64,000 bases of DNA. Source: Escherichia coli (lineage in GTDB: Bacteria; Pseudomonadota; Gammaproteobacteria; Enterobacterales; Enterobacteriaceae). Location: assembly GCF_965641715.1 (NCBI RefSeq), contig NZ_OZ282453.1. One strand, written 5' to 3'. The position numbers were made by a program. The stretch's first letter is position 1. Each line of letters opens with the position of its first letter. Positions 8,192 through 8,893 of the stretch are shown here, one piece after another.

Positions 8192-8893
8192 TGATGGGCG
8201 GTATTCTGAAACGGCGATTGTCGTGAGAACAGAATGGTTGCACCAGAATACAGATATAAAAAAACCGACATGACAGTCGGTTTTTTTATTTTTTCCGCCC
8301 AAGACTTGGTGGTTCCGGGCAGAAATGAAACAGTCCTCATCTAGCAAGTGAATTATAAGTCAGGATGCCTACATATTCAAACAGCTATGTTGGCGATACA
8401 ATCCCGACGCTAGTAGTGATACTGCCTCAAGGGATTACCGCAGTGCGGAAAAGTACTTTTAAGTCCTGGTCAGGATACAGGTGGTGCTGATTCTGGTGCT
8501 CTAATTTGGAGAGAGGCAGTCCTCATCTAGCACATGAAGAAAATCATAGTTACAGGCAACGTAAGGGTAAGCTGTGATTGTCTTTCTCCCTTAAGGGAGC
8601 AACGGATGAAAACTTTTCTCGATAAAGTTCTCATCGTGCTTAAGGCGCTAATCGCGCAGCTGGAACTGATCCGTCAGTTTATTGAATAACTGAGGAAACG
8701 TAGCTAAGGCCGAAGGTTTACCACCTTCGGCCTTTAAAAAAACCGACATGACAGTTGGTTTCATATTTATTGCCAAAATGCACACTGTTCATGCCAGATG
8801 CGGCGTAAACGCCTTATCCGGCCTACGGTTAAGTTCAGTTTTGTAGGCATGATAAGACGCGCAAAGCGTCGCATCAGGCATCTGCGCATAACT

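What the first reader, a model, noticed from the sequence alone, without database searches (positions are those of the whole stretch)
8258..8765. Candidate DinQ/TisB-like type I toxin-antitoxin module inserted into the mnmH terminator
A 27-aa ORF (MKTFLDKVLIVLKALIAQLELIRQFIE, 8607-8690) has a strong ribosome-binding site buried in a palindrome and a downstream hairpin. Its 5' leader carries the 16-mer CAGTCCTCATCTAGCA (8518-8533), which recurs exactly 186 bp upstream (8332-8347). A divergent minus-strand transcript covering the upstream copy would be perfectly complementary to the toxin leader, which is the arrangement of trans-acting antitoxin sRNAs in DinQ/AgrB-, TisB/IstR- and Zor/Orz-type systems. 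The whole ~480 bp segment is bracketed by two copies of the mnmH terminator sequence (AAAAACCGACATGACAGTYGGTTT at ~8260 and ~8738), suggesting it was inserted as a cassette.
Basis: partly seen in the sequence, partly recalled or inferred. Interest (0 to 1): 0.7.

Follow-up and report, generated by a model that had tools for sequence, protein, structure and literature searches.

The report
Second DinQ/AgrB-type toxin–antitoxin locus

Summary
The ORF and the 16-mers are each listed one base too high. The segment 8256-8774 aligns end to end with the K-12 agrA-dinQ cassette. The 27-aa peptide passes NCBIfam's DinQ model (39.6 bits, cutoff 30). The minus strand 8256-8344 passes Rfam's AgrB model (53.6 bits, gathering 40). 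That RNA has a near-consensus sigma-70 promoter just upstream. Its 5' end pairs with the toxin leader at 8508-8532, at the position AgrB uses on dinQ. Pairing is strongest for the cognate partner across nine family loci.

It is therefore a DinQ/AgrB-family type I toxin-antitoxin locus. RefSeq labels it "dinQ" in about 1,330 of 5,426 complete E. coli genomes. The wider "dql" family was described in 2016.

Differences from canonical dinQ:
- It has no LexA box, so the "damage-inducible" label is unsupported.
- It has one agr gene, not two.
- Pairing is shorter and richer in G·U pairs.

The "mnmH terminator" is the sRNA's own family-type terminator, shared in both directions with mnmH. I found no empty site, so insertion into a pre-existing terminator is not supported.

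This window's toxin has a private Leu18Gln change. About 15% of carrier genomes have a 108-bp deletion that kills the toxin. Known family, low novelty.

The parts
8256..8289 (.). Bidirectional intrinsic terminator hairpin (14-bp stem, T-runs on both strands). It ends mnmH on the + strand and the AgrB-like sRNA on the - strand.
   Evidence: The stem AAAAAACCGAC/GTCGGTTTTTT is identical to the K-12 agrA/agrB terminators.
8257..8345 (-). AgrB-like antitoxin sRNA, about 88 nt. The 5' end is GCUAGAUGAGGACUGUUUCAUUUCUG..., followed by a central hairpin and the terminator.
   Evidence: Rfam RF02891 AgrB scores 53.6 bits against a gathering score of 40, over the full model 1-84. Fold.
8352..8380 (-). 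Sigma-70 promoter of the sRNA: -35 TTGAAT (8380-8375), 17-bp spacer, -10 TATAAT (8357-8352). Predicted start at about 8345.
   Evidence: 10 of 12 matches. The predicted start coincides with the first position of the Rfam model.
8397..8402 (+). Predicted -10 (TACAAT) of the toxin mRNA promoter. It aligns with the K-12 dinQ -10 TATGAT. No LexA operator overlaps it.
   Evidence: Alignment. LexA scans.
8409..8605 (+). Toxin mRNA 5' UTR. The +1 is predicted at G8409 by homology to the experimentally mapped G1 of dinQ. Leader element 1 is CUGCCUC (8422-8428). The equivalent of the +44 processing site is at about 8457.
   Evidence: Alignment, folds, element definitions from PMC5066626.
8508..8532 (+). 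sRNA target site. It includes the exact repeat copy 8517-8532 and element 2 (GGAGAGAGG, 8508-8516), the sequence that otherwise pairs with the anti-SD.
   Evidence: Duplex predictions. The 3' end of the target lies 73 nt upstream of the start codon; it is 74-77 nt in the seven other complementary family pairs.
8582..8599 (+). Anti-SD (CUUUCUCC/CUCCC), UUAA loop and SD GGGAG (8595-8599), forming the SD-sequestering hairpin.
   Evidence: Homologous to dinQ stem-loop SL5.
8606..8689 (+). 27-aa DinQ-family toxin ORF (ATG 8606, TAA 8687-8689). This window carries a private Leu18Gln allele (A at 8658).
8706..8734 (+). Toxin mRNA terminator hairpin (12-bp perfect stem followed by TTT). Homologous to the dinQ terminator SL9.
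8735..8774 (+). Partial 40-nt duplicate (83%) of the sRNA terminator and its adjacent spacer. The hairpin at 8740-8761 could act as a back-up + strand terminator. It is probably a remnant of a duplicated unit.
   Evidence: It co-occurs with the cassette in 1,327 genomes.

Best explanation
The segment 8256-8774 is a chromosomal paralogue of the E. coli dinQ-agrAB type I toxin-antitoxin locus. It belongs to the 'dinQ-like' (dql) branch.

Shown here:
- The + strand encodes a 27-aa hydrophobic DinQ-family peptide behind a roughly 197-nt leader homologous to the dinQ leader.
- The - strand encodes an AgrB-family sRNA of about 88 nt with its own near-consensus promoter.
- The sRNA's terminator also serves the convergent mnmH gene.

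Inferred by homology to the experimentally dissected dinQ/agrB system:
- The full-length mRNA is translationally inert. Its 5' end (8409-8428) pairs with 8513-8532, and the SD GGGAG is locked in the hairpin CUCCC-UUAA-GGGAG.
- 5' processing near 8457 frees element 2 (GGAGAGAG, 8508-8515). This can then pair with the anti-SD (CUUUCUCC, 8582-8589) and open the SD.
- The constitutively made sRNA pairs through its 5' end with 8508-8532. The predicted duplex is 24 bp: 19 Watson-Crick pairs, 4 G·U pairs and 1 mismatch. Binding keeps the SD closed and gives RNase III a substrate, so the toxin is not made.
- If the peptide is made, it inserts into the inner membrane and depolarises it.

Unlike canonical dinQ, this promoter has no LexA operator. 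Expression is therefore probably not SOS-controlled.
For: - Toxin: NCBIfam NF041472 toxin_DinQ scores 39.6 bits against a curated cutoff of 30. 14 of 22 aligned residues match K-12 DinQ (sequences).
- sRNA: Rfam AgrB scores 53.6 bits against a gathering score of 40, over the full-length model.
- Promoter: TTGAAT-17-TATAAT puts the start at the first position of the Rfam model.
- Locus: the cassette aligns end to end with K-12 agrA-dinQ, covering the sRNA terminator, sRNA body, promoter region, leader, SD, ORF and terminator.
- Pairing strength: the sRNA 5' 30 nt pairs with the leader at -41.9 kcal/mol, against -20.5 ± 2.7 for shuffles.
- Pairing position: the target lies 73 nt upstream of the start codon; in the seven other complementary family pairs it lies 74-77 nt upstream.
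- Specificity: in a 12 sRNA x 9 leader matrix every locus's complementary antitoxin pairs best with its own leader. The exceptions are two paralogous extra agr copies, K-12 AgrA and the IncI second copy. Target sequences differ between loci, with matching changes in the sRNA.
- Covariation in the leader: the 5' end and target end are GCUAG/CUAGC here and GUUAG/CUAAC in K-12.
- SD accessibility: predicted P(unpaired) goes from 0.02 (full length) to about 0.09 (5'-truncated) to 0.02 (target blocked). K-12 dinQ moves the same way: 0.08, 0.22, 0.02.
- Annotation: RefSeq labels the locus dinQ in carriers. It is present in 1,332 of 5,426 complete genomes.
- Experimental basis for the family: PMC3567139 and PMC5066626 for dinQ/agrB, and PMC12365149 for plasmid DqlB/agrB.
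Against: - There are no expression or toxicity data for this locus.
- Pairing is weaker than AgrB:dinQ (-41.9 against -51.5 kcal/mol) and relies on 4 G·U pairs. The inactive AgrA:dinQ pair scores -36.0, so the margin is modest.
- Thermodynamic folding predicts only slight SD opening after 5' truncation.
- The toxin promoter has a poor -35 and is assigned only by homology.
- This window's peptide carries a Gln in the hydrophobic core that none of the 5,426 reference genomes has.
- About 15% of carrier genomes have a toxin-killing deletion. The toxin may therefore be dispensable or selected against.
Confidence: 0.85

Rival explanations
1. The locus is a decaying or attenuated module in this strain. 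The sRNA gene is intact, but the toxin is weakened by Leu18Gln in the transmembrane core. The locus would then be a relic, or the sRNA an orphan. This concerns the functional state and is compatible with family membership.
For: No genome among 5,426 has this ORF allele. All others differ, and the two carrier alleles read (L002, L011) have Leu18. Gln lowers the best 15-residue hydropathy window from 2.73 to 2.24. About 191-197 carriers independently lost the SD, the start codon and 10 codons through a 108-bp microhomology deletion while keeping the sRNA gene.
Against: The ORF, SD, leader and target site are all intact here. One polar residue in a 27-aa helix need not abolish membrane activity; DqlB has Asn in its core. 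The change could also be a sequencing error or a recent neutral variant.
Confidence: 0.25
2. It is a true SOS-inducible DinQ orthologue, as the RefSeq product name 'damage-inducible type I toxin DinQ' implies.
For: The peptide passes the DinQ equivalog HMM, and the PGAP name is applied to it.
Against: The K-12 LexA box TACTGTATGATTATCCAGTT aligns with GGCGATACAATCCCGACGC here, with both the CTG and CAG triplets lost. There is no CTG-N10-CAG anywhere in 8345-8606. The canonical arsR-gor dinQ locus is present separately in 5,422 of 5,426 genomes, so this is a paralogue.
Confidence: 0.05
3. A mobile cassette inserted into a pre-existing mnmH terminator and duplicated it as a target-site repeat.
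For: There are two direct copies 478 bp apart, nearly identical over 27 nt, that bracket the module exactly.
Against: The left copy's stem is the conserved terminator of the AgrB family and is part of the Rfam model. The similarity extends 13 nt into sRNA-proximal sequence, which fits a partial unit duplication. Tandem agr units occur in K-12, E. whittamii and IncI plasmids. No empty site was found: 1,327 genomes have the right copy and 1,332 have the cassette, and the best hits to a synthetic empty junction all contain the cassette. No recombinase or transposase lies nearby.
Confidence: 0.12
4. The features are a chance short ORF plus unrelated repeats and have no function.
For: None beyond the general frequency of short ORFs.
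Against: Both the protein model and the RNA model score above threshold. The whole locus is homologous to a characterised system. The repeats are far beyond chance.
Confidence: 0.01

Closest known systems
E. coli K-12 dinQ-agrAB (arsR-gor intergenic region; Weel-Sneve 2013, Kristiansen 2016)
   Same: - A 27-aa hydrophobic toxin with the core DK-IVL-ALIA-LELIR.
- A leader of about 195 nt with an SD-sequestering hairpin and the alternative pairing elements.
- A divergent, non-overlapping sRNA of about 85 nt whose first nucleotides pair about 74 nt upstream of the start codon.
- The same sRNA terminator stem and the same toxin terminator position.
   Different: - It has no LexA operator.
- It has one agr gene plus a 40-nt terminator remnant, rather than agrA and agrB.
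- The duplex has 19 Watson-Crick pairs, 4 G·U pairs and 1 mismatch over 24 bp, against 30 of 31 for AgrB.
- It starts with ATG, not GTG. The peptide is shifted by 3 residues and has a polar C-terminus, QFIE.
- It lies at a different chromosomal site, mnmH-ybbP.
- It is in about 25% of genomes, against about 100% for canonical dinQ.
dql (dinQ-like) genes; plasmid DqlB/AgrB addiction modules (IncX, IncI, IncL/M; Kristiansen 2016; pOXA-48 study 2025)
   Same: - There is no LexA box and the -10 looks constitutive.
- A single cognate AgrB-type sRNA lies upstream.
- Duplex energy is similar: -46 kcal/mol with 32 nt, against -41 to -46 for IncX3, IncI and pESI.
- The C-terminal LELIRQFI(E/D) matches IncX3 DqlB.
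- The leader is 76-77% identical to the IncI and pESI (IncFIB) plasmid dql leaders.
   Different: - It is chromosomal, at a fixed site, with no plasmid copies of this allele among E. coli genomes.
- The peptide is 27 aa and scores below the DqlB model's cutoff (23 bits, cutoff 35), while it passes the DinQ model.
- I could not confirm that this is the published 'dqlA' subgroup, because the figure and supplements are not held.
TisB/IstR-1 and ZorO/OrzO type I systems
   Same: The gene arrangement is the same: a divergent, non-overlapping, trans-acting sRNA that pairs with a long toxin 5' UTR, which must be processed to become translatable.
   Different: There is no sequence or RNA-family relationship. 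The Rfam OrzO-P scores of 19-24 bits against a gathering score of 60 fall on the terminator hairpin only.

Membership tests
DinQ/AgrB type I toxin-antitoxin family | The toxin peptide matches the DinQ protein family model above its curated threshold. | tested here: met
   NF041472 toxin_DinQ scores 39.6 bits against a cutoff of 30, E = 4.4e-10, over residues 5-26.
DinQ/AgrB type I toxin-antitoxin family | A small peptide (about 27-31 aa) forming a hydrophobic single helix. | tested here: met
   27 aa, GRAVY 0.96, best 15-residue window 2.24. Membrane localisation itself was not tested.
DinQ/AgrB type I toxin-antitoxin family | An AgrB-type sRNA encoded upstream of the toxin gene, divergent from it and not overlapping it. 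| tested here: met
   Rfam RF02891 scores 53.6 bits against a gathering score of 40, on the minus strand at 8256-8344. It has its own promoter and terminator.
DinQ/AgrB type I toxin-antitoxin family | The 5' end of the sRNA is complementary to the toxin 5' UTR upstream of the SD and covers the anti-anti-SD element. | tested here: met
   The predicted duplex spans 8508-8532, with an exact core over 8517-8531. ΔG is -41.9 kcal/mol against -20.5 ± 2.7 for shuffles. The cognate pair is the best in the cross matrix.
DinQ/AgrB type I toxin-antitoxin family | A homologous leader with an SD-sequestering hairpin and mutually exclusive pairings 1:2, 2:3 and 3:4. | tested here: inconclusive
   The alignment and the elements are present, and there is covariation. 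The predicted opening of the SD after truncation is small, from 0.02 to 0.09.
DinQ/AgrB type I toxin-antitoxin family | Toxicity of the peptide and neutralisation by the sRNA. | not testable with these tools
   This needs expression experiments.
dinQ proper (SOS regulon member) | A LexA operator overlapping the toxin promoter. | tested here: not met
   The K-12 box is replaced, and there is no CTG-N10-CAG in 8345-8606.
dinQ proper (SOS regulon member) | [quoted passage not shown] | tested here: not met
   This locus lies between mnmH and ybbP and has one agr gene. The arsR-gor locus exists separately in 5,422 of 5,426 genomes.
DqlB (plasmid DinQ-like B) | The peptide matches the DqlB model above its cutoff. 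| tested here: not met
   NF041473 scores 23 bits against a cutoff of 35.

The most novel reading that the evidence does not exclude
This may be a non-SOS chromosomal DinQ paralogue whose toxin is repeatedly lost or blunted while its sRNA is kept. The evidence would be the 108-bp deletion in about 15% of carriers and the Leu18Gln change here. That pattern would suggest the AgrB-like sRNA has a role of its own. One candidate role is buffering against incoming plasmid dql addiction modules. Another is regulating other targets.
Probability: 0.08. Interest if true: 0.4.

Novelty: already known. Interest (0 to 1): 0.15.

Why it matters
The finding is of limited importance. It shows that a tool-free reading correctly recognised a type I toxin-antitoxin module. 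It also adds some useful annotation detail:
- The RefSeq name "damage-inducible" and the 51-aa gene model are probably wrong for this paralogue.
- The antitoxin sRNA is not annotated.
- The locus varies between strains: it may be present, absent, carry a deleted toxin, or carry the private Gln18 allele. This could matter for studies of persistence or membrane stress in non-K-12 strains.

Tried and rejected
- LexA control is rejected. I scanned 8240-8640 for LexA boxes. I found only two weak 5-of-6-core sites and no CTG-N10-CAG.
- The empty-site search found nothing. The right-flank query and a synthetic one-terminator junction query both returned only cassette-bearing genomes among the listed best hits, and the counts match the number of carriers. 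I did not list all 5,426 genomes.
- The published 'dqlA' name could not be confirmed. No supplements are held for PMC5066626, and a full-text search for 'dqlA' returned nothing relevant.
- I found no literature on a dinQ-like gene at the mnmH/ybbP site.
- Whole-molecule duplex folding gave long artefactual duplexes, so I replaced it with an analysis of the sRNA's 5' 30-32 nt.
- The first K-12 SD-accessibility calculation picked the wrong GGAG and was redone.
- The genome contigs pattern scan returned only 6 loci. All were Escherichia or mis-binned contigs, which is too few for a formal covariation model.

Full report
**Context.** The window is E. coli DNA. allS lies at 6105-7031 (+), mnmH/selU at 7100-8194 (+) and ybbP at 9108-11522 (-). 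The finding lies in the mnmH-ybbP intergenic region, upstream of a REP/BIME array.

**Observation.**
- The 27-aa ORF is at 8606-8689.
- The exact 16-mer is at 8331-8346 and 8517-8532. These are the only two copies in 64 kb, and shuffles expect 0.01. The repeat extends to 22 nt at 91% identity.
The terminator coordinates are correct: 8260-8283 and 8738-8761.
- The SD GGGAG (8595-8599) lies in the palindrome 8583-8602. A perfect 12-bp hairpin follows the ORF at 8706-8734.
- The terminator duplication spans 40 nt at 83% identity with 478-bp spacing.

**What it is.** Four independent lines identify a DinQ/AgrB-family type I toxin-antitoxin locus.
1. The peptide scores 39.6 bits on NCBIfam NF041472 (toxin_DinQ, cutoff 30). 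It scores below cutoff on the related DqlB model.
2. Rfam's AgrB model (RF02891) matches the minus strand 8256-8344 over its full length. The score is 53.6 bits against a gathering score of 40, and the match also passes at default thresholds on the whole window.
3. The only sigma-70-like promoter in the region is on the minus strand: TTGAAT-17-TATAAT at 8380-8352. It places the start at about 8345, which is the first position of the AgrB model.
4. The segment 8240-8780 aligns collinearly with the K-12 agrA-dinQ cassette. The alignment runs through the sRNA terminator, sRNA body, sRNA 5' end, divergent promoter region, leader, SD, ORF and toxin terminator.

RefSeq already annotates the ORF as "dinQ: damage-inducible type I toxin DinQ", using the longer 51-aa frame 8534-8689.

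**Distribution.**
- The locus is in 1,332 of 5,426 complete E. coli genomes. It is always single-copy and chromosomal.
- It sits at the same site in Escherichia sp. E1V33.
- The canonical arsR-gor dinQ-agrAB locus is in 5,422 of 5,426 genomes. Carriers therefore have both loci, and this one is a paralogue.
- K-12 has the roughly 7-kb rhsD island in place of the whole 8197-9101 interval. O157:H7 diverges from 8244 onward.

**Mechanism, inferred from the characterised dinQ/agrB system** (PMC3567139, PMC5066626).
- *Start of the mRNA.* Homology places the toxin -10 at TACAAT (8397-8402) and +1 at G8409.
- *Full-length fold.* In the predicted fold, the 5' end (GCUAG...CUGCCUC, 8409-8428) pairs with GAGGCAG...CUAGC (8513-8532). 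This corresponds to stem S1 of dinQ. The SD is closed in the hairpin CUCCC-UUAA-GGGAG.
- *Covariation.* The terminal pairing covaries with K-12: GCUAG/CUAGC here against GUUAG/CUAAC there.
- *Element 2.* GGAGAGAG (8508-8515) can pair instead with the anti-SD CUUUCUCC (8582-8589).
- *SD accessibility.* Predicted P(unpaired) changes from 0.02 (full length) to about 0.09 (5'-truncated) to 0.02 (sRNA site blocked). This is the same direction as K-12 dinQ (0.08, 0.22, 0.02) but smaller. This step is inference.
- *The sRNA duplex.* The sRNA's 5' end forms a predicted 24-bp duplex with 8508-8532: 19 Watson-Crick pairs, 4 G·U pairs and one A·A mismatch. All four transition differences between the two DNA repeat flanks fall in the direction that gives U·G wobbles.
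- *Duplex energies.* ΔG is -41.9 kcal/mol for 30 nt, against -20.5 ± 2.7 for shuffles. For comparison, functional AgrB:dinQ scores -51.5 and non-functional AgrA:dinQ scores -36.0.

**Specificity across the family.** I tested 12 AgrB-type sRNAs against 9 leaders from K-12, E. whittamii, IncX1, IncX3, IncI and pESI plasmids, E1V33 and this window.
- Each locus's complementary antitoxin pairs best with its own leader. The exceptions are two paralogous extra agr copies, K-12 AgrA and the IncI second copy.
- In the eight complementary pairs the duplex starts at sRNA nt 1 and ends 73-77 nt upstream of the start codon. The non-complementary second IncI agr copy is the outlier, at sRNA nt 4 and 95 nt.
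- The paired sequences differ between loci.
- This co-variation is the best evidence available here that the pairing is under selection.
- With 32 nt, the duplex here (-46 kcal/mol) equals those of the IncI and pESI dql modules. The longest uninterrupted helix is 24 bp here and 9 bp for inactive AgrA.

**Differences from canonical dinQ.**
1. *No LexA operator.* The K-12 box TACTGTATGATTATCCAGTT aligns with GGCGATACAATCCCGACGC, and there is no CTG-N10-CAG between the sRNA start and the ORF. The plasmid dql loci also lack a LexA box at the promoter. Only the arsR-gor loci have one. The "damage-inducible" label is therefore not supported by sequence.
2. *One agr gene,* not two.
3. *Start and peptide.* The ORF starts with ATG. 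The peptide is offset by 3 residues and has a DqlB-like C-terminus, LELIRQFIE.
4. *Gene model.* The annotated 51-aa ORF has no SD. The 27-aa frame matches the experimentally defined DinQ V.

**The terminator copies.**
- The left hairpin (8256-8289) has the stem AAAAAACCGAC/GTCGGTTTTTT. K-12 agrA/agrB have the identical stem, and the plasmid agr terminators are very similar. It is part of the Rfam model. It is therefore the sRNA's own terminator, and with T-runs on both sides it also ends mnmH.
- The right copy (8735-8774) repeats the hairpin plus 13 nt of adjacent sRNA-proximal sequence, then breaks into REP-flanking DNA.
- It occurs in 1,327 genomes, essentially the same number as carry the cassette.
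- A synthetic empty-site query retrieved only cassette-containing loci among its best hits.
- I read the right copy as a remnant of a duplicated unit. Tandem agr units exist in K-12, E. whittamii and IncI plasmids. It may also act as a back-up terminator. Insertion into a pre-existing mnmH terminator cannot be excluded, but nothing supports it.

**Functional state.**
- This window's ORF differs from the allele in L002 (H1), which is 2 mismatches away like most carriers, at 8638 (synonymous) and 8658 (Leu18 to Gln). No reference genome shares the window's ORF sequence.
- About 191-197 carriers have a 108-bp deletion (8528-8635) between AGTCCTCATC and AGTTCTCATC. It removes the 3' end of the exact-repeat copy in the sRNA target, the SD, the ATG and 10 codons, but leaves the sRNA gene intact.
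- The toxin may therefore be under relaxed or negative selection in some lineages.

**Novelty.**
- The DinQ/AgrB system is well characterised.
- Kristiansen et al. 2016 defined the dql family on chromosomes and plasmids of Enterobacteriaceae.
- T1TAdb predicted the antisense RNAs for those loci.
- A plasmid DqlB/agrB module was validated in 2025.
- PGAP names this ORF and Rfam recognises the sRNA.
- I found no paper that treats this specific mnmH-ybbP locus. Even so, it is an already-known kind of element, already annotated. Interest is low.

Noticed in passing
window 8658 (and 8638): The toxin ORF here carries A at 8658, giving Gln18 in the hydrophobic core. None of the 1,325 matching complete E. 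coli genomes has an identical ORF, and the two carrier alleles read (L002, L011) have Leu18. The G/T difference at 8638 is synonymous.
   Followed up: partly
window 8528-8635; L004 and L005: About 191-197 of roughly 1,330 carrier genomes have a 108-bp deletion between the microhomologies AGTCCTCATC and AGTTCTCATC. It removes the 3' end of the exact-repeat copy in the sRNA target, the SD, the start codon and 10 codons. The sRNA gene stays intact. PGAP still calls a 25-aa 'dinQ' in some of these genomes.
   Followed up: partly
window 8534-8689: RefSeq/PGAP annotates a 51-aa ORF from ATG 8534, which has no Shine-Dalgarno sequence. The 27-aa frame from ATG 8606 has the SD and matches the experimentally defined DinQ V. 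The product name 'damage-inducible' is not backed by a LexA box.
   Followed up: yes
window 8197-9101, compared with L006 (K-12) and L003 (O157:H7): The whole mnmH-ybbP intergenic region is replaced by the rhsD/ybbC/ylbG island in K-12. Homology stops at both stop codons. In O157:H7 homology extends 47 nt further, to 8243. This is a variable hotspot.
   Followed up: partly
window 8787-9100: There is a REP/BIME array between the cassette and ybbP. Rfam naRNA4 matches 8846-8924 and 8947-9024, and ES036 matches 9028-9070.
   Followed up: no
L001 1564-1647 (K-12 agrA) compared with L012 (E. whittamii): The 5' end of K-12 AgrA pairs much better with the E. whittamii dinQ leader (-48.2 kcal/mol) than with K-12 dinQ (-36.0). 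AgrA therefore looks like the cognate antitoxin of a different dinQ allele.
   Followed up: no
L016 457-544 and 284-425 (IncI plasmid): There is a second AgrB-type copy whose 5' end is not complementary to the adjacent dqlB leader (-17.5 to -20.9 kcal/mol). A sok antitoxin match lies next to it.
   Followed up: no
window 8304-8345 compared with 8479-8532: Beyond the 22-nt repeat, the sRNA gene body shares motifs with the toxin leader in direct orientation (GGTGGT and flanking sequence), with an indel of about 11 nt. K-12 shows the same pattern. agr genes therefore look like diverged partial duplicates of the leader that are transcribed from the opposite strand.
   Followed up: partly
window 53843-53926 (-), 52266-52545, 59602-59679: There are other Rfam matches above gathering score elsewhere in the window: sroB, and further naRNA4/REP arrays.
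   Followed up: no
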